From: Mycolicibacterium smegmatis | Lineage (GTDB): Bacteria; Actinomycetota; Actinomycetes; Mycobacteriales; Mycobacteriaceae | Length of the DNA stretch: 32,000 nt | Direction: 5' to 3' | Assembly (NCBI RefSeq): GCF_001457595.1 | Contig: NZ_LN831039.1 | Location: 2,340,001 to 2,372,000, forward strand | In this document: piece by piece, positions 5,920 through 15,668 of the stretch | Numbering within the stretch: position 1 is the first letter of the stretch | Layout of the letters: each line of letters starts with the position of its first letter | The notes under the pieces: generated by a model | What the model was told of the DNA's origin: nothing | The model's input: the letters and a program-made list of their open reading frames with translations, nothing else | Databases searched by the model: none | Program-made: the position numbers and the translations under genes

Positions 5920-5956
5920 TTGACCCTCACGCGGCGTGAGGCGCCAGCCTTGTCAC
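5920..5956 (+). promoter_or_regulatory. MerR-type promoter/operator. Candidate -35 TTGACC (5920-5925), 19-nt spacer holding the palindrome CCTCACG-cgg-CGTGAGG (5925-5941), candidate -10 CAGCCT (5945-5950), then ATG 6 nt downstream (leaderless-like)
   Basis: Read directly. A dyad inside an over-long 19-nt spacer is the hallmark of MerR/TipA-type autoregulated promoters. A -10 element 6 nt before the start codon fits a leaderless mycobacterial mRNA. The -10 matches TANNNT only at A2 and T6. Confidence 0.45.
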
Positions 5957-6748
5957 ATGACGCAGGAGTTGCCGGTGGAGGAACTCACGGTCGGTGAGGT
6001 CGCCAAGCGATTTCGCATCACGGTGCGCACCCTTCACCACTACGACGAGATCGGGTTGCTGAGCCCCAGCCGGCGTGTGACCTCGGGTTACCGGGTCTAC
6101 ACGCCGGCCGACCTGACACGGCTGTCGCAGATCATCGTGTACCGCCGGCTCGAGTTCTCGCTCGACGAGATCGCGAGCCTGCTCGACGAGGGTGATGCGG
6201 TCAGCCACCTGCTCCGTCAGCGAGAACGCGTCATGGCACGCCTCGGCGAGATGAAGGACCTCGTCGCGGCCATCGATCAGGCATTGGAGAAGGCGATGAC
6301 CAACACCCCCATGACCGACGACGACATGCGTGAACTGTTCGGCGAGGGCTTCGACGACTACCAGGCCGAGGCCGAGCGCAAGTTCGGTGACACGGCCGAG
6401 TGGAAGGAATCCCAGCGGCGGACGAAGTCCTACAGCAAGGGGCAGTGGATCCAGCTCAAGGACGAGGGGGAAGCGGTGGAGAAGGCCCTGGCGGACGCCT
6501 TCCGAGGTGGGCTCGCACCCGACTCCGAAGTGGCCATGGACGCCGCCGAACAGCACCGGCTGCACGTGAACCGCTGGTTCTACGACTGCCCGCCCGATTT
6601 TCACCGCAAGCTGGGCGACATGTACGTCAGCGACCCGGCGTACGTCGCACGGTACGACGAATCCTTCGGGCTTCCCGGACTTGCCGCGTTCTGTCGCGAC
6701 GCCATCCATGCGAACGCCGACCGTGCGGGCGGCGATGTGACCGGCTAA
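5957..6748 (+). CDS. MerR-family transcriptional regulator with a TipAS-like C-terminal effector domain (263 aa)
   Basis: N-terminal HTH LTVGEVAKRFRITVRTLHHYDEIGLLSPSRRVTSGYRVYTPADLTRLSQIIVYRRLEFSLDEI. C-terminal HRLHVNRWFYDCPPDFHRKLGDMYVSDPAYVARYD...AAFCRDAI resembles TipAS/Mta-type antibiotic-recognition domains. Confidence 0.85.
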   Translation: MTQELPVEELTVGEVAKRFRITVRTLHHYDEIGLLSPSRRVTSGYRVYTPADLTRLSQIIVYRRLEFSLDEIASLLDEGDAVSHLLRQRERVMARLGEMKDLVAAIDQALEKAMTNTPMTDDDMRELFGEGFDDYQAEAERKFGDTAEWKESQRRTKSYSKGQWIQLKDEGEAVEKALADAFRGGLAPDSEVAMDAAEQHRLHVNRWFYDCPPDFHRKLGDMYVSDPAYVARYDESFGLPGLAAFCRDAIHANADRAGGDVTG

Positions 6749-7398
6749 TCGGTGCCGGGGGAGCGCCGCATGGATTCGCGTGCGAGGAACTCGCGGAAGT
6801 AGTCGAGGGATGCGGGCTCGACCAGGGCCGGCAGCAGCAGGTCCCAGGTGCGGACGAGGCGTTCGCGAAGATCCGTGCCGGACGTGCCTGCACGGGTCAG
6901 CGCCTCGGCGCCGAGCAGCGCCGACAGGACCACGTCGGCCACGGCCCCGGGATCCAGACCTTCACGCAGGTCACCTTCAGCAGCGGCGCGGTGTAGCTGT
7001 GCCGAGATCGCATCGAGCCAGCTCGCATACACGCGTGCGGTCGTGTCGTTGATACCCGCGAAGGTCTGCAAGAGGTGAAGGCCGATGTCGGCGACCCGGT
7101 CGGTGCGGGTGAAGTCGCACACCACGAACAGTCCGTGGATGAGGTTCTCCAGCGCCGGGGACGACGTTTCGGTGATGTTCTGGAAGGCCGCGAGCATGCT
7201 TGCCCCACTTTCGGCGATGATGGCCTCGGCGAGGGCCTCCTTGGAGTCGAAGTGGTAGTACAGCGCACCCTTGGTCATGTCGGCGCGCTCGATGATCTCG
7301 CCCAATCCGGTTGCCGGATAGCCGATTTCAGCGAAAAGGTCGACGGCGGCGGTGATGATCTTGCGTCGGGTGACACCGGCGCGGGCTTGACGTGCCAC
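6745..7398 (-). CDS. TetR-family regulator, ScbR/ArpA-like (autoregulator-receptor-like) subtype, 217 aa
   Basis: MARQARAGVTRRKIITAAVDLFAEIGYPATGLGEIIERADMTKGALYYHFDSKEALAEAII aligns by eye almost residue-for-residue with the N-terminus I remember for ScbR (MAKQDRAIRTRQTILDAAAQVFEKQGY...ITEIL..AGVTKGALYFHFQSKEELA). GTG start 7398 lies 6 nt after the upstream TetR stop. Confidence 0.9.
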   Translation of the reverse strand: MARQARAGVTRRKIITAAVDLFAEIGYPATGLGEIIERADMTKGALYYHFDSKEALAEAIIAESGASMLAAFQNITETSSPALENLIHGLFVVCDFTRTDRVADIGLHLLQTFAGINDTTARVYASWLDAISAQLHRAAAEGDLREGLDPGAVADVVLSALLGAEALTRAGTSGTDLRERLVRTWDLLLPALVEPASLDYFREFLARESMRRSPGTD

Positions 7399-7404
7399 GA
7401 GCGG

Positions 7405-8106
7405 TCACGCCGATCCGGCGCGCGTGTGCGCCGGTGGTTCGGGATGCAGCGGGACGGCCTTGCGCGCCGTCAACGTGGTGCGGCGGCGGATGAACTGCCG
7501 CAGGTAGCCCAGCCGGTCGGGGTTGGCGATGCCCGGCAGTACGAGCTGCCAGCTGCGCTCCAGGTCCTGCAGGAACCGTTGTGGATCCTCCAGTTCGCTG
7601 GTCTGGCGGACGCCCAGGTACAGCGACACCAGCAGCCGGGCCACGACGTCCGGGTCGCTGTCTGGGGTGAGATCACCCTCGGAGACGGCGCGGCGGCCGA
7701 TCGCGGAGAAGCGCGCGACCCAGTCCGTGACAACCTTCGCGCCGAGGTTCTCGGTGCGTCCGATCGATTCGATCAGGTTGAGCCCGGCACGCGTCATCGG
7801 GTCGCTGACGTCGTCGACCGCGAGTTGGTAGCTGATGTCGATGAGGGTCTCGAGGCCGGACAGATTGCGCGCGGCGACGTCCTCGGTGGTGTCGCGGGCC
7901 TGCGCGGCGTGGTACTCGACGATTGCGCAGGCCAGCGCGTGCTTGGAGCGGAAATGGAAGTACAGCGCCCCCTTGGTCACCTGGGCGTCGGCGAGGATGT
8001 CATCGAGGCTTACCAGGCTGTACGGGGTGCGCGCGAACTGCCGCGACGCGGCCTGCAGGATCTGGAGCCGGGTGAGGTCTGCTCGGCGGTCGAGCTGCTC
8101 AGTCAC
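7405..8106 (-). CDS. TetR-family regulator, paralogue of the adjacent one (ScbR/ArpA-like subtype), about 233 aa
   Basis: VTEQLDRRADLTRLQILQAASRQFARTPYSLVSLDDILADAQVTKGALYFHFRSKHALACAIV. The start is taken as GTG 8106 (GAGG 7 nt upstream, N-terminus matches family length). GTG 8109 and ATG 8136 are alternatives. The rest of ORF 7405..8289 is low-GC and not protein-like. Confidence 0.8.
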   Translation of the reverse strand: MTEQLDRRADLTRLQILQAASRQFARTPYSLVSLDDILADAQVTKGALYFHFRSKHALACAIVEYHAAQARDTTEDVAARNLSGLETLIDISYQLAVDDVSDPMTRAGLNLIESIGRTENLGAKVVTDWVARFSAIGRRAVSEGDLTPDSDPDVVARLLVSLYLGVRQTSELEDPQRFLQDLERSWQLVLPGIANPDRLGYLRQFIRRRTTLTARKAVPLHPEPPAHTRAGSA

Positions 8107-8344
8107 CACACAACCTCGGAATCTGCAGGATCGCATCGTCGGGCGTACGTCTTCTGGCAAACGCGCGTACGTCAATTGTTCCATCAGGAAATTCCCATAC
8201 CGAGGCGGCGCTGACCGTGTCTTGATGTCGGTTCTCCGATCCGCCGCGATTCGCGAATACTTGAAGTCACCAGTAGGCGTGCGGATCATTCTATCGGTAT
8301 GTATTCTGCTTTATGTGATAACTCCGGGTTCGCCGTTGGTGGAC

Positions 8345-8660
8345 CCTGCAGCGTTGGATCGCGCCCCCGCTGCAGGCCCCGCGACGTACCGTGCGCCATC
8401 GCTTTCCGCGGTGGTGCGGGGCTATCCTGAATGTGTTGCCATGGCCTGCACCGGCAATCCCCCTCGAATCCCGGTGCAGGTCATGGTGACCTCGCATACT
8501 CGGTACCCACTAGGTGTCCTCGCTGCGTCCGATGCACACCGCGCCACGTGCGGACAACGCCCGTTGTCCAGCTCAGGACGGTCGACTCGGCCCGTGGTGG
8601 CGGCGGCGCACACACGCTGAGGGTCGAGGCGCGGCGGTCCATCGGCTCGACTCAGTTTTG
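8345..8660. other. Structured non-coding region (candidate 5' leader or sRNA; strand not established)
   Basis: Strong local hairpins: 8345-8376 (9-bp stem CCTGCAGCG/CGCTGCAGG, loop rich in C); 8445-8480 (10-bp stem CCTGCACCGG/CCGGTGCAGG, 16-nt loop CAATCCCCCTCGAATC); 8552-8569 (GGACAAC-gccc-GTTGTCC); 8619-8653 (GAG-gg-TCGAG...CTCGA-CTC) followed by AGTTTTG, 16 nt before ATG 8676. No convincing ORF. Confidence 0.25.
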
Positions 8661-8675
8661 AGGTACCAATAAACG

Positions 8676-9503
8676 ATGTGGGACGACGAACTCGATGTCG
8701 TTTGCTGTGGATCCGGTTCCGGGGCGTTTGCCGCGGCGATCGCAGCGGCCGACGCCGACCTTGACGTAGAGGTCGCCTGCCGGCCCGTTACCCCGCAGGG
8801 AACTTCCGGGTCGCCATGGCTCGGCCGCGGCATCGAAGATTCCGAGACCAGGGAGTATCTCGACGAACTCGTGGCGGACCAGGATCCGTCTTCGCGCGAC
8901 TCCGAGCACGCCGACATCGAGATCCGTGCCATGAGGCAGCTGTCGCCCGCGGCGCCGAGGACGCCTGTCGAGACCTTTCACGGCGCCCAGTTGCGGGACT
9001 GGGCCGGGCAGTGTCTGCGGTCGCCGTACGGCCTGCTGTATACCCGCCTCACCGAGCGCGGGGGCGTCCCGATGGAGACCGAGGCCGGCGAGATCATCGA
9101 GGCGAACGTGCTGGGGTCCATCGACCTCCCGGCGGGGGCCGGTGCCGCAGCGGCGGTCGACGGGTGGATGCGGATGCAGCTCCGTGAGCGCGACATCCCG
9201 AGCGACGACGACGCCGCGCTGGAACGGATCGTGTTCGAGGAGGGCGAGATCGTCGGTGTGGCGCTCGCGACAGCCGACGGTCCGCGCACCGTACGGGTGC
9301 GGCACGGCATCGCAGTGTCCACCGAGGTGCCCGCCGCCGGCCGACGGCGTATGGAGACCGCCCAGACGCTGCGGGTGGCGCTCGTGGGGCGAAGCGCCAG
9401 CAGGTTCAGCAGGGTGGAGTTGCTGACGATCCCGTCCGCTGGTCATCCCGACGATCTCGCGCAGGGCAACGGGGCGCCGCACTCACATGCGAGGCGCAGC
9501 TGA
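8676..9503 (+). CDS. Hypothetical protein with an N-terminal Rossmann-like dinucleotide-binding motif (275 aa)
   Basis: MWDDELDVVCCGSGSGAFAAAIAAADADLDVEV is a beta-alpha-beta GxGxxG/A-like start, as in FAD-dependent oxidoreductases. Codon third positions are GC-rich as in neighbouring genes. I recognise no further motifs. The 3' end overlaps the convergent GGDEF-EAL gene by 21 nt. Confidence 0.6.
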   Translation: MWDDELDVVCCGSGSGAFAAAIAAADADLDVEVACRPVTPQGTSGSPWLGRGIEDSETREYLDELVADQDPSSRDSEHADIEIRAMRQLSPAAPRTPVETFHGAQLRDWAGQCLRSPYGLLYTRLTERGGVPMETEAGEIIEANVLGSIDLPAGAGAAAAVDGWMRMQLRERDIPSDDDAALERIVFEEGEIVGVALATADGPRTVRVRHGIAVSTEVPAAGRRRMETAQTLRVALVGRSASRFSRVELLTIPSAGHPDDLAQGNGAPHSHARRS

Positions 9504-11333
9504 GAAGTGCACCGGCACACGGCCTTTGGCAAGAAGGGTCTGCATCTCACTGCCCAGGATGGGTTTGGACAGCAGGAACCCCTGCGCGCGGTAACACCCG
9601 TGGCGCAGCAGGGTGAGCGCGGCGCGCTCGGTCTCCACGCCCTCGGCCACCAGTTGTAGTCCGAAGGCCCCCGCCAGCGCGATCACGGCCCGCACGATCG
9701 GAAGGTCGCCCGGGTTGGAGCCCAGTTCGGCCACGAAGCTGCGGTCGATCTTCAGCGTGTCCACCGGCAGTGATTTCAGCAGCGACAACACGCTGTAACC
9801 GGTGCCGAAATCGTCGATGGCCACCTGGACGCCGACGTTGTGCAGACCCGTCAGCGTGGTGCGGGTGGTCTCGATGTCCTGCACCACAACGCTTTCGGTG
9901 ATCTCCAGACACACCGACCCGCGCGGCAGACCGAACTCTTTCATGATGCCCGCCACCGACTCGACGAATCCGTCGGTCACGAGCTGGACCGGTGAGACGT
10001 TGATCCGCAAGACGATGTTGCGGCCCACGCCGTTGGCCCGCCACCGGGAGAACTCGGCGCATGCCGTGCGCAGCACCCACCGGCCCAGTTCCCCTGCGAG
10101 GTTGATCGATTCGGCCACGCCGATGAACGAGTCGGGCGACAGCAGGCCGCGGGTGGGATGCTCCCAGCGGACCAGCGCTTCTGCCGCCAGCACCTCACCG
10201 GTGCGCATGTCGATTTCCGGCAGGTAGTGCAGCACCAGTGCGCCGCCTTCGATCACGCTCTGCAGGTGCAGTTCGATGTCGTTGCGGAAGTCGATCTCCA
10301 TGGCCATCGCGTCGGAGAAGACCGCGACGCGGTTGCCGCCGGAACCCTTGGCCGTCAATACCGCGTGGTCGGCCCGGTTGAGCACGTCGGACGTTGAATC
10401 CTTACCCGGAATGCCTTGTGCGATACCGATGCTCACGGTTCGAGTGAGCATCTCACCGTCGACGGTGACGCGTTCGCGCAGCACCGACTGCAGCCGGTAG
10501 GCCAGCGCGGTGGCCTCATCCAGCGACATGGGATCGTCGGGGACGACGACGAACTCGTCGCCGCCGAGGCGCGCTATCAGCTTCGGAGCGTCGTCACCGC
10601 GTTGCAGTCGCTGCGCGAGGATGCTGATGAACGCGTCACCCGCGGTGTGACCCAGGTAGTCGTTGATCGCCTTCAGCCGGTCCAGGTCGAAGAACATCAC
10701 CGCGACCGGACCGGGTTGTCCCGGAGCGAGTCTCGCTTCCAGGTGCGCCATCAGGGCGCGACGGTTGTACAGGCCGGTCAGGTGATCGTGGTCGGCCAGG
10801 TAACGCAGGCGTTCCTCGGCCTCGATCCGGGCCTGCACCTGCGCGAACAACGACGCGATCGCCTTGAGCGCGTTGAGTTCTGCGGGCAGCCACTCGCGGT
10901 CGCCGAACTTGACGAAGCCCAGCACACCGGTCGTGACGTCGCCGCTGAGCAGCGGGACGCACGCCATCGACGTGGCGGGGATGTGCCGGCCTGCCACGTC
11001 GATGGTGCGCTGATAGTCGTCGTAGAGCGGTTCGGGCCGGAACACCGCGGGTTCCTTGAGGTGTTCGGCCATGGCGAACACCGGGTCGGCATCGGCGAAG
11101 TGGACGACGGCGATCGGGTCGGTGGCGGCGTCGACCGGACGCGGCGGCCACTCGGCGACGAGCCTCGTGGCGTGGGCGCGGTGGTCGTTGTGGCGCAGGA
11201 AGCTCACATCGACATCGAAGAACGACACCAGTTCGGCGAGCACCTGCTGGCTGACCGACACCGAGGTGGCCGCCTCGACTGCCATGAGCTGAGTGGCGAC
11301 GGACGTGACCAGCACGTCCAGGCTCTCGGACAC
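9483..11333 (-). CDS. dcpA: Bifunctional c-di-GMP enzyme, GAF-GGDEF-EAL architecture (616 aa)
   Basis: GGDEF domain: DHLTGLYNRRAL...FFDLDRLKAINDYLGHTAGD...ARLGGDEFVVV. EAL domain: AAEALVRWEH...NVSP...LEITES...IDDFGTGYS..LK.LPVDTLKIDRSF...AEGVET...GC...QGF. About 190 aa of GAF-like N-terminus. The start is set at GTG 11333, which has GGAGG 7 nt upstream and lies after the upstream gene's TAA. ORF 9483..11618 would otherwise overlap that gene by 256 nt. The size matches the ~615-aa M. smegmatis DcpA / Rv1354c family as I recall it. Confidence 0.9.
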   Translation of the reverse strand: MSESLDVLVTSVATQLMAVEAATSVSVSQQVLAELVSFFDVDVSFLRHNDHRAHATRLVAEWPPRPVDAATDPIAVVHFADADPVFAMAEHLKEPAVFRPEPLYDDYQRTIDVAGRHIPATSMACVPLLSGDVTTGVLGFVKFGDREWLPAELNALKAIASLFAQVQARIEAEERLRYLADHDHLTGLYNRRALMAHLEARLAPGQPGPVAVMFFDLDRLKAINDYLGHTAGDAFISILAQRLQRGDDAPKLIARLGGDEFVVVPDDPMSLDEATALAYRLQSVLRERVTVDGEMLTRTVSIGIAQGIPGKDSTSDVLNRADHAVLTAKGSGGNRVAVFSDAMAMEIDFRNDIELHLQSVIEGGALVLHYLPEIDMRTGEVLAAEALVRWEHPTRGLLSPDSFIGVAESINLAGELGRWVLRTACAEFSRWRANGVGRNIVLRINVSPVQLVTDGFVESVAGIMKEFGLPRGSVCLEITESVVVQDIETTRTTLTGLHNVGVQVAIDDFGTGYSVLSLLKSLPVDTLKIDRSFVAELGSNPGDLPIVRAVIALAGAFGLQLVAEGVETERAALTLLRHGCYRAQGFLLSKPILGSEMQTLLAKGRVPVHFSAAPRM

Positions 11334-11362
11334 CGGATCACCTCCACTTGAGCTCAGCCCTG

Positions 11363-13534
11363 TTACGACGTCCTGACCCCCTGGAGGGCTCGGCGCCGGC
11401 TCCGTATCGACGGGCGTGGCGCGAAGAAGAATCTGAGCACCAACGCCTGCGATTCGTCGCGATCGGTCGTCGTCACCTGGCGAAAAGCGTACTGCAGGTC
11501 CCGCAGTCTCATCGCGTGGCCCGCCGAGAGTTCCTGCAGTTCGCCGTCGTTGTGTGCGTACAGGAACACCGGCGACACCGGCTGCACAGAGACACCGTGC
11601 TGCTGCGCGGCGACCCACACGGCTTCGACCGCGCTGCCCGCCTGTGCGTAGTCGGTGAGCCTGCGACCCCGGATGGAGACGACCGCGAGCGCCGAGCTGG
11701 ACGTCACGCGCTCGTAGGTGTCGTCACCCAGTGCCGATCCGCTGCCCCAATCGGCGAGCTTGTCCATCACCTCGGGGCGACGCAGGATGTCGAGGACCAC
11801 GATGTCGGTCTCGTCGAGACCGAGCGTGGTGATGTCGATCCCGGTGTCGGGGTCGGGGTCTCCTGGCCAGCGCAGCTCCGAGATCATCTGGCGGTGCAGC
11901 GTGGGCGTCAAATACCGGATGCGATCGGTTTCGGCGAGAATCCTTGCCGCGGAGTCCATTTCGGAACGATCGCTCAGTACCGTCAGGCGGGCGCCTTCGC
12001 GCTGTGCCGCGGTGTGTAGTGCCTGCAAGACGTCGGCCGGGATAGGTTCGGCGTCGCCGCGCAACCGGTTGGTCTCGCGCTGCAGCATGGGCTCGTAGAG
12101 TGCGGCCGACTCGGGATCCGAGCCGGGGGTCAACGGCAGTGTCGCGAACAGCGGCGTGCCCTCGTCGCCGCGGGACCACTCGACGCGAGTCCTCAGCCCG
12201 TGCGCGGCGGCCGCGACGCGGGCGTTGAAGGCGGCCGCGCCGAGCGCCACGGCGCTGCCGCGGTAGCCGACATCCATCGCCGAGGTGTATTGCGTCAGCA
12301 GCCGCAGGCTGACCCGGTCACGGTCGACCTTGATGTCCCAGGGCTGGACGTTGCCGCCCGAGGGGGCGCGAGAGGTGGCGTGCGCGATGATGCCGGGCAC
12401 GTCGGCGGGGGCGGCCTGCGATTGTTCGTGCAGCACCGGCGCGGGCCGCGGCGGTGTGTCGAGTGGGTCGTCGATGCCGTCGAGTGTGCTGCCGATGTCG
12501 ATGCGCACCCGGCCCGACGCCAACGGTTCGCCGAGGCCGATGCGCCGGACGGCGTCGGCGACGACGGTCGCGCCGAGGACGACCTCGGACGCCAGTTGCG
12601 GCCAGGTGGTGAGGGTCTTGCCGACCTCGACGAGGGACGCGGCCATCCGGGCGGACAACTGGGGGGCGTCGAGGATGCGCAGGACATGGGGCACCTTGTC
12701 CTTGCTCGACAGACCCGCCAGCCGCGCCGCGTCGATGTCACCGACCAGGCCGTGCAGGATGGGACGACCGGGATCGAGGTCGAAGCGTTCCACGTCGAGC
12801 AGGCCGCGGTCGGAGGTGGCCATCAGCACCGGAAGCTTGCGCGCCCGCGCAGCCTCGCGGACGAGCACTTTCGCGTCGAGAGAGTCGCATTCCTCGACGA
12901 CGACGTCCAGACCGTCGAGGAACTCACCGAGTGATTCCGGTTGCGCACCGCCGAGATCGACCCGCACGCGCAGGTACGGATCGATCTCGGCGATCCTGCG
13001 TGCGGCGACCACCGCCTTGTTGACCCCGAGATCGAACACCGTGCCCGGTACCCGATTCAGGTTAGGCAGCTCGATCTCGTCGAAATCGGTCAGCCGCAAC
13101 TCTCCGCACAGCCCCTCGACCGCGAGGTTGTGGGCGATCGCGTGGCCCACGCTCAGGCCGATCACCCCGATCCGCAGATCTGACAGACGCTGCTGCTCGT
13201 CGGCGCTGATGAGGTTGCGGTTGCGGTCGAGCCGCAGCCGGTGGAACGCGCGCGGGCCGACCAGGTGCACCACACAGCGCCGCCACGGGTAGTACGCCCA
13301 GGTCGTCGGTTCGGCGAGCAGGTCCGGTTCCACCGCCGGAACCAGGCTGCGCAGGGCTTCCTGTTGTTGTCGACAGTCGTCGATCACCGTGATCCGGGCG
13401 TCGGCACGCAGCTGCGCGAGCGCGTCGCGTCCGGCGTCGGTGTCCGGGTCGATGATGACGGCAGTACAGGCGGAGTCGTCGTCAGCGGGAGAGCCGGTGG
13501 GAGAGAGGTTGAATCGGTGGTCGTCTGAGATCAT
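11363..13534 (-). CDS. moeY: Rv1355c (MoeY)-family protein: ThiF/E1-like adenylation domain fused to nitroreductase-like (SagB/McbC-type) domains, 723 aa
   Basis: E1-like core: RIGVIGLSVGHAIAHNLAVEG...LRLTDFDEIELPNLNRVPGTVFDLGVNKAVVAARRIAEIDPYLRV...VVVEECDSLDAK. C-terminal half: HATSRAPSGGNVQPWDI... and a second related segment ...AVWVAAQQHGVSVQPVSPVF, typical of FMN nitroreductase-fold domains. ATG 13534 overlaps the upstream stop (ATGA). Confidence 0.85.
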   Translation of the reverse strand: MISDDHRFNLSPTGSPADDDSACTAVIIDPDTDAGRDALAQLRADARITVIDDCRQQQEALRSLVPAVEPDLLAEPTTWAYYPWRRCVVHLVGPRAFHRLRLDRNRNLISADEQQRLSDLRIGVIGLSVGHAIAHNLAVEGLCGELRLTDFDEIELPNLNRVPGTVFDLGVNKAVVAARRIAEIDPYLRVRVDLGGAQPESLGEFLDGLDVVVEECDSLDAKVLVREAARARKLPVLMATSDRGLLDVERFDLDPGRPILHGLVGDIDAARLAGLSSKDKVPHVLRILDAPQLSARMAASLVEVGKTLTTWPQLASEVVLGATVVADAVRRIGLGEPLASGRVRIDIGSTLDGIDDPLDTPPRPAPVLHEQSQAAPADVPGIIAHATSRAPSGGNVQPWDIKVDRDRVSLRLLTQYTSAMDVGYRGSAVALGAAAFNARVAAAAHGLRTRVEWSRGDEGTPLFATLPLTPGSDPESAALYEPMLQRETNRLRGDAEPIPADVLQALHTAAQREGARLTVLSDRSEMDSAARILAETDRIRYLTPTLHRQMISELRWPGDPDPDTGIDITTLGLDETDIVVLDILRRPEVMDKLADWGSGSALGDDTYERVTSSSALAVVSIRGRRLTDYAQAGSAVEAVWVAAQQHGVSVQPVSPVFLYAHNDGELQELSAGHAMRLRDLQYAFRQVTTTDRDESQALVLRFFFAPRPSIRSRRRALQGVRTS

Positions 13535-14313
13535 TGCCCCGCCGCAGTAGTGGAATCGGTGTCGTCGGCCACGCCAAGCCGGGGTGTGATCCGCTGCGAC
13601 TCGGCGAAGTAGGCCGAAAGCTGCTTCGGATCAGCGTGATTGGCAAATGTACTCCGATCCCACCACATCATCTTGGTCTGGTACCGCGCATCGGGGTACG
13701 GCGTCGCCGGGATCTTGGTGGCGAGCACGCCTCCGGAGGACAACCACCGCTTGAGGACGTAGGCTGCCGCCGTGGCCATCGCGAACTGAATGTTGAGCAA
13801 CGTCATGGAATGTAGCGGCATCCTCGCCAGCGTGTCGGTGAGCGCACGGCTCTGCTCCGGGTCGTCGCTGACCCAGGCGGTCTTCATCTCGACCACACCG
13901 AACGGGATGCGGTCGCTCACCATTTTGCGGACGGCGTCGAGGCCGGGTTGACCACTCCATTCGACAATCGCATGGCTTTCGTCGGCGTTTCGGTACGGTC
14001 CCTTCGCCCGCAGGCCGCCGACAACCCGACCGGCGTCATTGATCCCCGCGCAGAACAATGCGGTGTCGGTACCGGTGCGCAAGGCCTGCATATCGAGCGC
14101 GCACTCGACGCCGTGTTTCCGGTAGTTGCGCTCGGCGCCCCGGACGTATTCGTGCCACAGTTCCCGTTCGGCTCCCGGGTCGGCGACCACGATGGTGCAT
14201 TCGCTGGTGGGGTCCCACCAACTGTGGCTCTTGGCAAGCGAGAGGTCCGAGTGGTCGGAGGCTTCGAGTCCAGCAAGGGTCATGTCGGTGTCCATTTCTA
14301 CGGTCGGCCGCAC
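13531..14313 (-). CDS. Conserved hypothetical protein (Rv1356c-like position), up to 260 aa; start uncertain
   Basis: Long ORF with GC-rich third positions, first gene of the operon. Candidate starts are GTG 14313 (GGGAGG immediately adjacent), ATG 14295 and ATG 14283. The pattern ...ALFCAGINDAGRVVGGLRAKGP...GVVEMKTAWVSDD... weakly resembles GNAT/LuxI-fold acyltransferases. Confidence 0.7.
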   Translation of the reverse strand: MRPTVEMDTDMTLAGLEASDHSDLSLAKSHSWWDPTSECTIVVADPGAERELWHEYVRGAERNYRKHGVECALDMQALRTGTDTALFCAGINDAGRVVGGLRAKGPYRNADESHAIVEWSGQPGLDAVRKMVSDRIPFGVVEMKTAWVSDDPEQSRALTDTLARMPLHSMTLLNIQFAMATAAAYVLKRWLSSGGVLATKIPATPYPDARYQTKMMWWDRSTFANHADPKQLSAYFAESQRITPRLGVADDTDSTTAAGQ

Positions 14314-14433
14314 CTCCCGCGTGGTACGGCTAAATCGGGCTTACGTTGCGTCGGGACGCGAATACGCGACATGAGTATCGCGCCGCTTGCCACTCAAATT
14401 CCAGCGAGCCGAGAAAGATCGTGAACCGGGGTA

Positions 14434-14612
14434 TGCAATTTAGTTCGTCATACCGCACTTACTCGCCAGTAGCTGCAAATTTGGCAAATTCGTTCGCAAT
14501 GGAAAAAAGGTGTTTGAACCGCTGAAAGGTGGGTATAGCAAATATCTTTATTGACGCGCTCGTGAATCGTGTACGCACGCGCAAGTTTGATCAGATTTGC
14601 CGTCAGGGCAAT
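14434..14612. promoter_or_regulatory. AT-rich island in the divergent promoter region, with seven GCAAT/GCAAAT motifs
   Basis: GCAA(A)T at 14435, 14475, 14484, 14496, 14538 and 14608, plus ATTTGC at 14595. The perfect palindrome CAAATTTG lies at 14476-14483. A rough count expects fewer than one occurrence by chance in about 180 nt. The island sits between the minus-strand operon start (14313) and purU (14778). Confidence 0.35.
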
Positions 14613-14777
14613 CGTTCGGACTTGTGCGGTGTTCACATGGGCGAACGCCGAACATCGGACGAGCGGCCTCCCGGGCCTGTTCCCGGGGCCCCGCATCGAG
14701 GCCTCGGGGCACGGATCGAGGGCTCGGATGGGGCCGGTGTCGCGGCCGGGAAACCGGCCGGTGACAATCTCCTGGTG

Positions 14778-15668
14778 ATGGCGCAGGAGTATCCGAAGGC
14801 GAACGCTCTACCGGCTCAGGACGTGGGCCGGTTGTTGCTGCGTTGTGCTGATCGCCCCGGACTGGTGGCGGCGATCAGTGGCTTCCTGACCGCCGCGGGC
14901 GCCAACATCGTGTCGCTGGATCAGCACTCCACCGAGCAGGCCGGCGGCACGTTCATCCAGCGCACGATCTTCCATCTGCCCGGGCTCACCGCGGTGCGCG
15001 ACGAACTCGAACGGTCTTTCCGTGAGCAGGTGGCGGGTCCGTTCGAGATGGACTTCACCCTGACCGAGGCGGCCAAACCCAAGCGGGTGGCCCTCATGGC
15101 GTCGCGCGAGGACCACTGCCTTCTGGACCTCCTGTGGCGCAACCGGCGCGGCGAACTGCCCATGTCGGTGGTGATGGTGATCGCCAACCATCCCGATCTG
15201 GCCGAGCAGGTGCGCGCGTTCGGGGTGCCGTTCATCTACGTCCCGGCGACCAAGGAGAACCGCGCGGAAGCCGAGCAGCGCCTGCTCGAGTTGTTGCGCG
15301 GCAACGTCGATCTCGTGGTGCTGGCGCGTTACATGCAAATCCTCACCCCGGAGTTCCTCGACGCCGTCGGCTGCCCGCTGATCAACATCCACCACTCGTT
15401 CCTGCCTGCGTTCATCGGTGCGGCGCCGTACCGGCGCGCCAAGGAGCGCGGCGTCAAACTGGTCGGCGCGACAGCGCATTACGTGACCGAGGATCTCGAC
15501 GAGGGGCCCATCATCGAGCAGGATGTGGTCCGCGTGGATCACCGGCACACCGTCGAGGATCTCGTTCGCCTCGGCGCCGACGTGGAACGGCTGGTGTTGT
15601 CGCGAGCGGTCCTGTGGCACTGTGAAGACCGCGTGATCCGGTTCGGCAATCAGACCGTGGTCTTCTGA
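14778..15668 (+). CDS. purU: Formyltetrahydrofolate deformylase (296 aa)
   Basis: N-terminal ACT domain GRLLLRCADRPGLVAAISGFLTAAGANIVSLDQHS...GTFIQRTIFHLPGL. Formyltransferase core LVVLARYMQILTPEFL......INIHHSFLPAFIGAAPY.RA.ERGVKLVGATAHYVTEDLDEGPII.Q. Start ATG 14778 (GTG 14775 or ATG 14637 possible, but the 14637-14777 stretch has only about 70% GC3). Confidence 0.9.
   Translation: MAQEYPKANALPAQDVGRLLLRCADRPGLVAAISGFLTAAGANIVSLDQHSTEQAGGTFIQRTIFHLPGLTAVRDELERSFREQVAGPFEMDFTLTEAAKPKRVALMASREDHCLLDLLWRNRRGELPMSVVMVIANHPDLAEQVRAFGVPFIYVPATKENRAEAEQRLLELLRGNVDLVVLARYMQILTPEFLDAVGCPLINIHHSFLPAFIGAAPYRRAKERGVKLVGATAHYVTEDLDEGPIIEQDVVRVDHRHTVEDLVRLGADVERLVLSRAVLWHCEDRVIRFGNQTVVF

What the first reader, a model, noticed from the sequence alone, without database searches (positions are those of the whole stretch)
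9483..14313. Three-gene operon coupling an orphan protein and an E1-like/nitroreductase fusion to the GAF-GGDEF-EAL c-di-GMP enzyme
Seen in the sequence: the three genes share a strand. The first two overlap by ATGA (13531-13534). The third starts 29 nt after the second gene's stop, with its own GGAGG. The only long upstream region (464 nt, AT-rich) precedes the first gene.

Established: the last gene belongs to the bifunctional diguanylate cyclase/phosphodiesterase family studied as M. smegmatis DcpA and M. tuberculosis Rv1354c. As far as I recall, M. tuberculosis keeps the same order Rv1356c-Rv1355c(moeY)-Rv1354c. The 'molybdopterin' name of MoeY comes only from its ThiF-like domain.

Inference: conservation of this trio across distant mycobacteria would argue for one functional module. 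In it, the orphan and the adenylating/FMN-dependent enzyme would make or modify a small molecule or peptide. That product would be read by the GAF domain, or would covalently modify the cyclase. A loose analogy is the E1-like Cap2 proteins that prime cyclic-nucleotide synthases in CBASS. No such link has been described for mycobacterial c-di-GMP signalling to my knowledge.
Basis: partly seen in the sequence, partly recalled or inferred. Interest (0 to 1): 0.75.

Follow-up and report, generated by a model that had tools for sequence, protein, structure and literature searches.

The report
Tryptazolone genes joined to c-di-GMP enzyme
This is the already described Mycobacterium smegmatis operon in which two enzymes that make a small tryptophan-derived lipid (N-acyl tryptazolone) are transcribed with the cell's only c-di-GMP-making enzyme. 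I found the pairing conserved across many actinobacteria, so the idea that the lipid is that enzyme's unknown signal can now be tested directly.

Summary
Three co-oriented minus-strand genes show an ATGA overlap, a 29-nt gap with GGAGG, and a long low-GC region upstream.

The window is M. smegmatis, and the genes are MSMEG_2199, MSMEG_2198 and MSMEG_2196.
- The "orphan" is TrzA, an N-acyl-tryptophan synthase with a GNAT fold.
- The "E1-like/nitroreductase fusion" is TrzS, an ATP-dependent cyclase fused to a flavin oxidase.
- Together they make N-acyl tryptazolones. Kleetz et al. (JBC 2025) showed this with this very protein.
- Co-transcription with dcpA, plus an internal dcpA promoter, is published (Bharati 2013; Li 2017).
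- Kleetz et al. already remark that the locus sits next to c-di-GMP genes.

My addition is the breadth of the link. A GAF-GGDEF-EAL gene lies in the trzS cluster in 75 of 80 species genomes, and in 51 of 53 informative metagenome lineages. This holds through at least six gene arrangements and in Rhodococcus, Jiangella and Acidimicrobiales.

Cap2-like covalent priming is not supported. That the GAF domain senses a Trz-pathway metabolite is plausible (about 0.3-0.4) but untested.

Verdict: known parts and a known operon; the functional coupling is open and testable.

The parts
13531..14283 (-). trzA (MSMEG_2199 equivalent): N-acyl-L-tryptophan synthase, GNAT fold, 250 aa.
   Evidence: No Pfam or NCBIfam hit. 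The AF2 model has pLDDT 82.5. Foldseek places it in the GNAT fold, with matches to FeeM N-acyl amino acid synthase 2g0b, the CoA-dependent AHL synthases BjaI/MesI, and the NcdE acyltransferase. The start codon is conserved in 12 species. Function comes from Kleetz 2025. About 20 of 150 TrzS representatives carry this domain fused to TrzS.
13531..13534 (-). ATGA overlap between the trzA stop and the trzS start (translational coupling)
   Evidence: Read directly from the sequence. The same 4-nt overlaps occur in the Jiangella, R. opacus and L092 loci.
11363..13534 (-). trzS (MSMEG_2198 equivalent), 723 aa. ThiF-like ATP-dependent cyclase (aa 103-240, DNA 12815-13228) fused to an Acg-like flavin-dependent oxidase (aa 385-669, DNA 11528-12382).
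   Evidence: NF005901 at 1057 bits; ThiF 1.4e-23; Acg-family FMN oxidoreductase 1.5e-34. D217, R540 and Q651, the residues targeted by Kleetz 2025 on TrzS_Msmeg, are present. The protein is identical to that of M. smegmatis assemblies.
11334..11362 (-). 29-nt trzS-dcpA spacer with GGAGG (11341-11345)
   Evidence: No terminator-like site lies in or near it.
11478..11491 (-). Internal dcpA promoter inside the 3' end of trzS: -10 TACGCT (11486-11491) and TSS A at about 11478, giving a 145-nt leader
   Evidence: Li 2017 places the TSS at 2277142, 145 nt upstream of MSMEG_2196, confirmed by 5'-RACE. It was mapped onto the window. TA(C/T)NNT is kept in 26 of 81 trzS genes. Where the Tyr codon is present, the next codon ends in T in 26 of 27 cases, although it encodes A, D, S, N or T. 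Background T3 is 0.097.
9483..11333 (-). dcpA / msdgc-1 (MSMEG_2196 equivalent), 616 aa: GAF (aa 26-165, DNA 10839-11258), GGDEF (aa 180-335, 10329-10796), EAL (aa 357-591, 9561-10265)
   Evidence: Pfam EAL 5e-66, GGDEF 5e-34, GAF 8e-08. The GGDEF motif at aa 257 and the EAL motif at aa 385 are intact. The GAF AF2 model has pLDDT 88.
14284..14774 (.). Divergent purU-trzA control region (491 nt, low GC). Conserved blocks: ATTTGCCAAATTTGCA (14474-14489), GCTCGCTGGAAT (14398-14409), GATACT as candidate -10 (14374-14379), and the CGCGTATTCGCG palindrome (14357-14368).
   Evidence: Alignment of 12 species; GC profile. There is no Rfam match and no consensus sigma-70 site. The promoter assignment is inferred, not mapped.

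Best explanation
The locus is the trzA-trzS-dcpA operon of Mycolicibacterium smegmatis.

Shown elsewhere, with identity confirmed here:
- TrzA N-acylates L-tryptophan using a short or medium-chain acyl-CoA.
- The ThiF-like half of TrzS uses ATP to cyclise the product to an oxazolone. Its flavin half then desaturates it with O2, giving N-acyl tryptazolones (C6-C8 in M. smegmatis).
- DcpA is the bifunctional enzyme that makes and degrades c-di-GMP, and it is the only one in this species.
- All three genes are read as one transcript. dcpA also has its own promoter inside trzS.

Shown here: trzS and a GAF-GGDEF-EAL gene stay together across Actinomycetota, through several rearrangements.

Inferred: the pair forms one signalling module of the synthase-plus-receptor type, like RpfF/RpfR. 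A Trz-pathway metabolite, either N-acyl-tryptophan or the tryptazolone, would be sensed by the DcpA GAF domain. Sensing would shift the balance between c-di-GMP synthesis and hydrolysis.
For: Identity:
- NF005901 at 1057 bits.
- D217, R540 and Q651 are present.
- The protein is identical to M. smegmatis TrzS.

Biochemistry: PMC12856293.

Operon:
- Li 2017 lists 'MSMEG_2199-MSMEG_2198-MSMEG_2196 confirmed' and 'MSMEG_2196 alternative'.
- The same paper cites Bharati 2013 for polycistronic and monocistronic transcripts.

Linkage:
- In 80 species-level genomes, 73 have the GAF-GGDEF-EAL gene within 221 nt of trzS and 2 more within 3.5 kb. This holds across at least 6 gene arrangements.
- The other flanking genes are much less conserved.
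- The pairing is also found in R. opacus, Jiangella, an Acidimicrobiales MAG and two unnamed high-GC assemblies, that is 5 of 5 checked.
- In metagenome contigs, 51 of 53 informative lineages have it.
- L023, L038 and L050 keep trzS-dcpA even without trzA.

Other support:
- The partner always keeps an alignable GAF domain.
- The GAF ligand is unknown in the literature I found.
- TrzA's fold resembles FeeM and CoA-dependent AHL synthases.
- N-acyl-Trp accumulates mainly in culture supernatants (abstract).
Against: - No binding or activity data link the two.
- Purified MSDGC-1 and Rv1354c are active in vitro without added ligand, so a ligand can only modulate activity.
- The GAF model matches only generic GAF domains, which gives no clue to the ligand.
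- Five of 80 genomes and 2 of 53 metagenome lineages have trzS without the gene.
- M. lepromatosis keeps intact trzA and trzS, while dcpA is cut down to its GAF part.
- None of 150 TrzS representatives is fused to GAF, GGDEF or EAL.
- Tryptazolones were not detected in M. tuberculosis.
- dcpA has its own promoter, so expression can be uncoupled.
- I could not test whether DcpA-type genes occur without trzS.
Confidence: 0.4

Rival explanations
1. Co-expression only. The tryptazolone pathway and DcpA are kept in one operon because both are needed under the same condition, such as starvation or stationary phase. There is no direct molecular contact: the GAF domain senses something else.
For: One transcript is documented, and an independent dcpA promoter also exists. 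DcpA is active without ligand in vitro. M. lepromatosis keeps trzAS but not a full dcpA. No fusion proteins join the two.
Against: Co-expression alone rarely holds a gene pair together across orders and classes, and through inversions that put the genes on opposite strands and so break co-transcription. Examples are L042, L051, L065, L107, L136 and L143.
Confidence: 0.3
2. The coupling runs the other way or through protein contact. DcpA, or c-di-GMP itself, controls TrzS or TrzA activity, as RpfR binds and restrains the DSF synthase RpfF.
For: trzS-dcpA adjacency is tighter than trzA-trzS adjacency in some genomes: L023, L038 and L050, plus the 12 loci where trzA has moved. The RpfR-RpfF precedent is PMC6361424.
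Against: TrzS and TrzA show no recognisable c-di-GMP-binding motif or extra domain. TrzAS work when expressed without their cognate DcpA in R. jostii and in vitro.
Confidence: 0.12
3. Synteny without functional meaning: an ancestral arrangement that simply has not been broken up.
For: Most sampled genomes are related (Mycobacteriales), and shared ancestry inflates the counts.
Against: Neighbours such as purU, maoC, the FMO and the TetR genes are lost in most loci, while the pair persists. It persists in Jiangella and Acidimicrobiales, where every other neighbour differs. It also survives at least 6 rearrangements.
Confidence: 0.05
4. Cap2-like priming. The E1-like domain of TrzS would adenylate DcpA and attach it covalently to a target, or otherwise modify it, to activate it.
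For: TrzS belongs to the ThiF/E1 superfamily. It gives weak hits (at most 32 bits) to PADLOC Cap2 'E1-E2' models.
Against: - The hits cover only the Rossmann adenylation core (aa 100-240), and there is no E2 part.
- The DcpA C-terminus varies in length and sequence, with no conserved terminal Gly or Ala.
- DcpA is not a CD-NTase.
- The domain's substrate is known to be N-acyl-tryptophan. The D217A variant abolishes cyclisation.
Confidence: 0.02

Closest known systems
TrzA/TrzS N-acyl tryptazolone pathway (Rv1356c/Rv1355c; M. smegmatis and R. jostii RHA1 homologues), Kleetz et al. J Biol Chem 2025, PMC12856293
   Same: It is the same system. The window's TrzS is identical to the M. smegmatis protein and carries D217, R540 and Q651. 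TrzA lies upstream with an ATGA overlap.
   Different: Nothing differs in the two biosynthetic genes. The paper treats dcpA only as a neighbour, in one Discussion sentence about M. tuberculosis. It does not survey the linkage.
DcpA / MSDGC-1 (MSMEG_2196) and Rv1354c (MtbDGC), bifunctional GAF-GGDEF-EAL enzymes
   Same: Same gene. The architecture and the intact GGDEF and EAL motifs match. The published operon and internal TSS map onto the window.
   Different: The window's protein has one extra residue in a GAF loop (aa 112-113, 'DV' versus 'E') compared with three other M. smegmatis assemblies.
OxzAB (Pseudoalteromonas rubra) and TyzACB (Rv2336-2338c) oxazolone pathways
   Same: The chemistry is the same: a GNAT-type N-acyl amino acid synthase, a ThiF-like cyclase, and a flavin oxidase of the nitroreductase superfamily.
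   Different: They use a different amino acid (Tyr or Phe) and different chain lengths. The OxzB-like class (35-40% identity) lacked a GAF-GGDEF-EAL neighbour in 4 of 4 loci checked. One of these had a GGDEF-only gene nearby, and one had response regulators and histidine kinases.
RpfF-RpfR (BDSF/DSF) signal-synthase and receptor pair of Burkholderia and Cronobacter (PMC6361424, PMC4698668)
   Same: A gene for a lipid-like signal synthase lies next to a sensor-GGDEF-EAL protein, and the pair is conserved across species. This is the model for how the trz-dcpA module might work.
   Different: It uses a PAS sensor rather than GAF, and fatty-acid rather than oxazolone chemistry. Ligand binding is proven for RpfR and untested here. 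There is no homology between the synthases.
CBASS Cap2 (E1-E2) priming of CD-NTases
   Same: Only the ThiF/E1 adenylation fold, and the fact that the neighbour makes a cyclic nucleotide.
   Different: There is no E2 domain, no CD-NTase, no conserved target C-terminus and no Cap3. The substrate of the E1-like domain is a small molecule.

Membership tests
TrzS / Rv1355c family (NCBIfam NF005901) | Full-length match above the curated cut-off | tested here: met
   1057 bits against a cut-off of 476, covering aa 17-721
TrzS / Rv1355c family (NCBIfam NF005901) | ThiF-like adenylation domain with the catalytic Asp (D217), fused to an FMN oxidase domain with R540 and Q651 | tested here: met
   ThiF at aa 103-240 and Acg-like FDO at aa 385-669. 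D217, R540 and Q651 are present. D217, R226 and other residues are invariant in 43 diverse homologues.
TrzS / Rv1355c family (NCBIfam NF005901) | Adjacent or fused N-acyl amino acid synthase gene (trzA/oxzA type) | tested here: met
   ATGA overlap with trzA. trzA lies within the flanks in 72 of 80 genomes. About 20 of 150 representatives are fused.
TrzS / Rv1355c family (NCBIfam NF005901) | Makes N-acyl tryptazolone from N-acyl-Trp with ATP and O2 | not testable with these tools
   Published for the M. smegmatis enzyme
TrzA / N-acyl amino acid synthase (GNAT, FeeM-like) | GNAT acyltransferase fold | tested here: met
   AF2 pLDDT 82.5. Foldseek prob 1.0 to FeeM 2g0b, BjaI 5w8a, NcdE 9nik and many GNATs, but TM-scores are only 0.4-0.6.
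TrzA / N-acyl amino acid synthase (GNAT, FeeM-like) | Sequence match to a curated acyltransferase family (e.g. Pfam FeeM PF21926) | tested here: not met
   No Pfam or NCBIfam hit even at E<=10. The profile against PDB sequences gave nothing meaningful. The family is sequence-divergent, and membership rests on fold, synteny and the published assay.
DcpA / Rv1354c bifunctional diguanylate cyclase-phosphodiesterase | GAF-GGDEF-EAL architecture with intact GGDEF and EAL motifs | tested here: met
DcpA / Rv1354c bifunctional diguanylate cyclase-phosphodiesterase | Both activities present; identity of the GAF ligand | not testable with these tools
   The activities are published. The ligand is unknown.
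CBASS Cap2-type E1-E2 priming system | E2 domain fused to the E1 | tested here: not met
   PADLOC E1-E2 models align only to the E1 core, at 32 bits or less. Pfam shows no E2/UBC domain.
CBASS Cap2-type E1-E2 priming system | Target is a CD-NTase with a conserved C-terminal residue for conjugation | tested here: not met
   The partner is a GGDEF-EAL protein with no PADLOC hit. The C-termini of 73 orthologues vary in length and sequence.
Signal-synthase plus sensor-GGDEF-EAL receptor pair (RpfF/RpfR type) | Synthase and receptor genes adjacent, with the pair conserved across taxa | tested here: met
   75 of 80 genomes, 5 of 5 distant Actinomycetota and 51 of 53 metagenome lineages
Signal-synthase plus sensor-GGDEF-EAL receptor pair (RpfF/RpfR type) | The receptor's sensor domain binds the synthase's product, which changes c-di-GMP turnover | not testable with these tools
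   The fold search of the GAF model was uninformative

The most novel reading that the evidence does not exclude
N-acyl-tryptophan or N-acyl tryptazolone is the long-sought ligand of the DcpA/Rv1354c GAF domain. trzAS-dcpA would then be a self-produced-signal to c-di-GMP circuit. It would be an actinobacterial counterpart of RpfF/RpfR and the first small-molecule, possibly cell-to-cell, input known for mycobacterial c-di-GMP signalling. It would also give oxazolones a physiological role.
Probability: 0.3. Interest if true: 0.8.

Novelty: already known. Interest (0 to 1): 0.45.

Why it matters
Two open questions meet at this locus.
- What signal controls the only c-di-GMP synthase of M. smegmatis and M. 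tuberculosis? Its GAF ligand has stayed unknown since the enzymes were described in 2010.
- What are bacterial N-acyl oxazolones for? Kleetz et al. call this the major unresolved question.

The near-universal pairing of trzS with a GAF-GGDEF-EAL gene across Actinomycetota turns a one-sentence remark in the literature into a concrete hypothesis. It can be tested cheaply by binding assays with compounds that have already been synthesised. If the link is only co-expression, the locus is an ordinary, fully annotated operon.

Tried and rejected
- **Known RNA elements and signals:** an Rfam scan of 8400-15000 found nothing credible. The sigma-70 and terminator scans did no better than shuffled sequence.
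- **TrzA by sequence:** Pfam, NCBIfam and a profile against PDB sequences all failed. Only the structure prediction placed it, in the GNAT fold.
- **GAF ligand by fold:** the best matches are generic GAF domains from a sigma-54 regulator, PtsP and phytochromes. This is not informative.
- **Fusion evidence for the trzS-dcpA link:** none of the 150 best TrzS representatives contains GAF, GGDEF or EAL. The long proteins are TrzA-TrzS fusions.
- **254-aa ORF in L055:** I tested it as a divergent TrzA, and it is unrelated.
- **GAF-profile search of the large protein collection:** it returned mostly gene fragments under 350 aa. It therefore could not be used for a reverse census.
- **Cap2 analogy:** rejected.
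- **Wasted search:** one literature search used terms that were too general and returned nothing useful.

Full report
**1. Observation**

The region holds three minus-strand ORFs with coding-type composition (GC3 0.80-0.86).
- Gene 1 ends and gene 2 begins in an ATGA overlap at 13531-13534.
- Gene 2 stops at 11363-11365. Gene 3 starts with GTG at 11333. The gap is 29 nt, with GGAGG at 11341-11345.
- Gene 2 is a ThiF domain plus a nitroreductase/Acg-like domain. It matches NCBIfam NF005901 'Rv1355c family protein' at 1057 bits against a cut-off of 476.
- Gene 3 is GAF-GGDEF-EAL with intact GGDEF and EAL motifs.
- Gene 1 has no Pfam or NCBIfam hit.

The upstream neighbour is divergent purU (ACT plus formyltransferase).

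I make two corrections. First, the conserved start of gene 1 is the ATG at 14283 (250 aa), not the GTG at 14313. Second, the intergenic region is therefore 491 nt. It is 58% GC overall, with a core of 38-52% GC.

**2. Identity of the locus**

The TrzS protein is identical to that of Mycolicibacterium smegmatis assemblies, for example CP102342.1. In the mc2155 numbering of Li et al. 2017:
- gene 3 is MSMEG_2196 (dcpA / msdgc-1);
- gene 2 is MSMEG_2198 and gene 1 is MSMEG_2199;
- purU is MSMEG_2200;
- the convergent 275-aa ORF at 8676-9503 is MSMEG_2197.

**3. What the first two genes do is published**

Kleetz et al. (J Biol Chem 2025, PMC12856293) showed the following.
- Rv1356c, named TrzA, N-acylates L-tryptophan with short acyl-CoAs.
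- Rv1355c, named TrzS, carries out ATP-dependent cyclisation (ThiF-like half) and then O2-dependent desaturation (flavin half). The product is an N-acyl tryptazolone.
- The M. smegmatis genes gave C3-C8 products in R. jostii. C6-C8 species were detected in wild-type M. smegmatis.
- The D217A and R540A variants were deficient in the cyclase and desaturase activities respectively. Q651 was also targeted.

All three residues are present at those positions in the window's protein. The 2023 paper from the same group had already called Rv1356c an oxzA homologue.

My own checks agree. The AF2 model of gene 1 (pLDDT 82.5) has a GNAT fold. Its matches include the N-acyl amino acid synthase FeeM and the CoA-dependent acyl-homoserine-lactone synthases BjaI and MesI. 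About 20 of the 150 best TrzS representatives are natural TrzA-TrzS fusions. So gene 1 is not an orphan, and the 'E1-like' domain is a small-molecule cyclase.

**4. The operon is also published**

Li et al. 2017 list 'MSMEG_2199-MSMEG_2198-MSMEG_2196' as a confirmed operon and 'MSMEG_2196' as an alternative sub-operon. They cite Bharati et al. 2013 for both polycistronic and monocistronic dcpA transcripts.

Their 5'-RACE-verified TSS lies 145 nt upstream of dcpA. It maps to A at about 11478, inside the 3' end of trzS, behind a TACGCT -10 hexamer at 11486-11491.

I found this hexamer kept as TA(C/T)NNT in 26 of 81 trzS genes.
- Where the Tyr codon is present, the next codon ends in T in 26 of 27 cases.
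- That codon encodes A, D, S, N or T, so the protein sequence is not what is conserved.
- T at third positions is 9.7% in these genes.

This suggests selection on the DNA. The sequences are related, so the nominal P-value overstates the case.

Martini et al. 2019 list a further TSS 456 nt upstream of dcpA, at about 11789. No terminator-like site separates the genes.

**5.

*Reference genomes.* I anchored on TrzS in one genome per species and scored the 80 best loci.
- 73 have a GAF-GGDEF-EAL gene within 221 nt of trzS.
- 2 more have it within 3.5 kb.
- 5 lack it.

The arrangements vary.
- 53 loci are trzA-trzS-dcpA. Four of these have 1.5-2.7 kb inserted between trzA and trzS.
- 12 loci are trzS-dcpA with trzA downstream on the other strand.
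- 3 loci have dcpA inverted between trzA and trzS.
- 3 loci are P450-trzS-dcpA with no trzA within 10 kb.
- Single variants include L059 and L060.

The other neighbours (purU, maoC, FMO, TetR) are retained in far fewer loci.

*Outside Mycobacteriaceae.* The pair recurs in two Rhodococcus species (L073, L078) and in R. opacus M213. In Jiangella sp. the three genes have 4-nt overlaps and are followed by a BldD-like regulator. In an Acidimicrobiales MAG, a TrzA-TrzS fusion lies directly upstream of GAF-GGDEF-EAL. It also recurs in two unnamed high-GC assemblies.

*Metagenomes.* A scan anchored on the Jiangella-type protein gave 80 loci in 61 lineages at 90% identity or more. Eight were too short downstream to judge. 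Of the other 53:
- 44 have the gene directly downstream on the same strand;
- 3 have it convergent;
- 4 have it upstream;
- 2 have only a weaker GGDEF gene nearby.

*Slow-growing mycobacteria.* M. avium paratuberculosis has trzS-dcpA, with a frameshift in dcpA, and trzA beyond a methyltransferase and a P450. M. lepromatosis has LuxR, an EAL-only gene, trzA and trzS, then a dcpA cut down to its GAF part.

*The more distant OxzB-like class.* At 35-40% identity to TrzS, none of 4 loci has a GAF-GGDEF-EAL neighbour. One (Paenibacillus) has a GGDEF-only gene next door. One is flanked by response regulators and histidine kinases.

The link is therefore a property of the TrzS subfamily across Actinomycetota. 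It is much broader than 'a few close relatives'.

**6. How it may work**

The biosynthetic steps and the operon are shown. The link between them is inferred.

The best-supported reading is a synthase-plus-receptor module. The DcpA GAF domain would sense N-acyl-tryptophan or the tryptazolone, and would tune the balance of cyclase and phosphodiesterase activity. The model is the conserved RpfF/RpfR pair, in which a PAS-GGDEF-EAL protein binds the neighbouring synthase's fatty-acid signal.

In favour:
- The pairing is persistent.
- The partner always keeps an alignable GAF domain.
- The GAF ligand is unknown.
- DcpA is the only GGDEF/EAL enzyme in M. smegmatis.
- TrzA's fold is close to signal synthases.
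- N-acyl-tryptophans accumulate outside the cell.

Against:
- There are no binding data.
- DcpA and Rv1354c are active without added ligand.
- The GAF model (pLDDT 88) matches only generic GAF domains.
- Some lineages have trzS without dcpA.
- M. lepromatosis keeps trzAS without a full dcpA.
- dcpA has its own promoter.
- No fusion proteins join the two.

I put direct sensing at about 0.3-0.4. Co-expression without contact is about 0.3. Control in the reverse direction, or through a TrzS-DcpA contact, is about 0.1. Neutral synteny is about 0.05.

**7. The Cap2 analogy**

TrzS gives only weak hits (32 bits or less) to PADLOC Cap2 'E1-E2' models. They are confined to the adenylation core (aa 100-240), with no E2 part. 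DcpA has no defence-system hit. The C-termini of 73 DcpA orthologues vary in length and sequence, with no conserved terminal residue. The E1-like domain already has a known small-molecule substrate. Covalent priming is not supported (about 0.02).

**8. Verdict**

The sequence observation is correct. The components, their chemistry, the co-transcription and the adjacency to c-di-GMP genes are all already in the literature. As stated, the finding is known rather than new.

What this analysis adds:
- a quantitative demonstration that the trzS-dcpA pairing is nearly universal in the TrzS subfamily and survives rearrangement;
- nucleotide-level conservation of the internal dcpA promoter;
- a set of conserved motifs in the upstream control region.

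The functional coupling remains an open hypothesis that can be tested directly, and that keeps the interest moderate.

Noticed in passing
window 8676-9503 (+): A convergent 275-aa ORF (MSMEG_2197 equivalent) overlaps the 3' end of dcpA by 21 nt. It belongs to no family, with only a faint FAD-type GxGxxG motif at its N-terminus. A 30-50% identical copy sits in the same position in most Mycolicibacterium loci. Li 2017 give it a 361-nt leader.
   Followed up: partly
window 14357-14489: The purU-trzA intergenic region has blocks conserved across 12 species: ATTTGCCAAATTTGCA (14474-14489), GCTCGCTGGAAT (14398-14409), GATACT (14374-14379) and the palindrome CGCGTATTCGCG (14357-14368). They look like a promoter plus a regulator site. 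No TSS for trzA was found in the tables I could read.
   Followed up: partly
window about 10996-11001 (DcpA aa 112-113): The window's DcpA has 616 aa. Three other M. smegmatis assemblies, and the mc2155 annotation, have 615 aa. The difference is 'DV' versus 'E' in a low-confidence loop of the GAF domain (pLDDT about 60). TrzS is identical in all of them.
   Followed up: partly
L023, L038, L050, L041, L055, L058 (upstream of trzS); L043 (downstream); L093 10555-11925: A cytochrome P450 gene recurs in trz clusters. It often takes the place of trzA directly upstream of trzS. This suggests a variant pathway or a further modification of the product.
   Followed up: partly
P0125, P0127, P0129, P0132, P0136 and others; L088 3701-6550; L089 7001-10060: About 20 of the 150 best TrzS representatives are single polypeptides with a TrzA domain fused to TrzS. 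One (P0243) has it at the C-terminus.
   Followed up: yes
L086 11577-12074; L089 12165-12944; L094 2685-3593; L092 3874-5997: Further c-di-GMP genes gather around the cluster: a BldD-like regulator after dcpA in Jiangella, EAL-only genes in L089 and M. lepromatosis (as Rv1357c in M. tuberculosis), and a PAS-GGDEF-EAL gene upstream in L092.
   Followed up: no
L094 4818-8735 (M. lepromatosis): In this reduced genome, trzA and trzS are intact ORFs. dcpA retains only aa 1-203, the GAF part. Either dcpA is decaying or a stand-alone GAF protein has been kept.
   Followed up: partly
L055 7899-9533; L084 6516-7334; L090 6046-6926 and 10050-13243; L038 14036-15034: Other signalling genes lie next to TrzS-like genes that lack dcpA or are distant. 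They include a HAMP-adenylate cyclase (L055), a GGDEF-only gene (Paenibacillus), and two response regulators plus two histidine kinases (L090). A cNMP-binding GNAT follows dcpA in L038.
   Followed up: no
window 5936-8289: Downstream of the operon lie a MerR/TipAS-type regulator (5936-6748, +) and two tandem TetR genes (6745-7398 and 7405-8289, -). A TetR gene keeps this position in about half of the related loci.
   Followed up: no
window about 11789 (-) and 11883-11911 (-): Martini 2019 list another TSS inside trzS, 456 nt upstream of dcpA. The consensus scan gives a TTGACG-17-GATGAT site nearby, but it does not coincide with that TSS.
   Followed up: no
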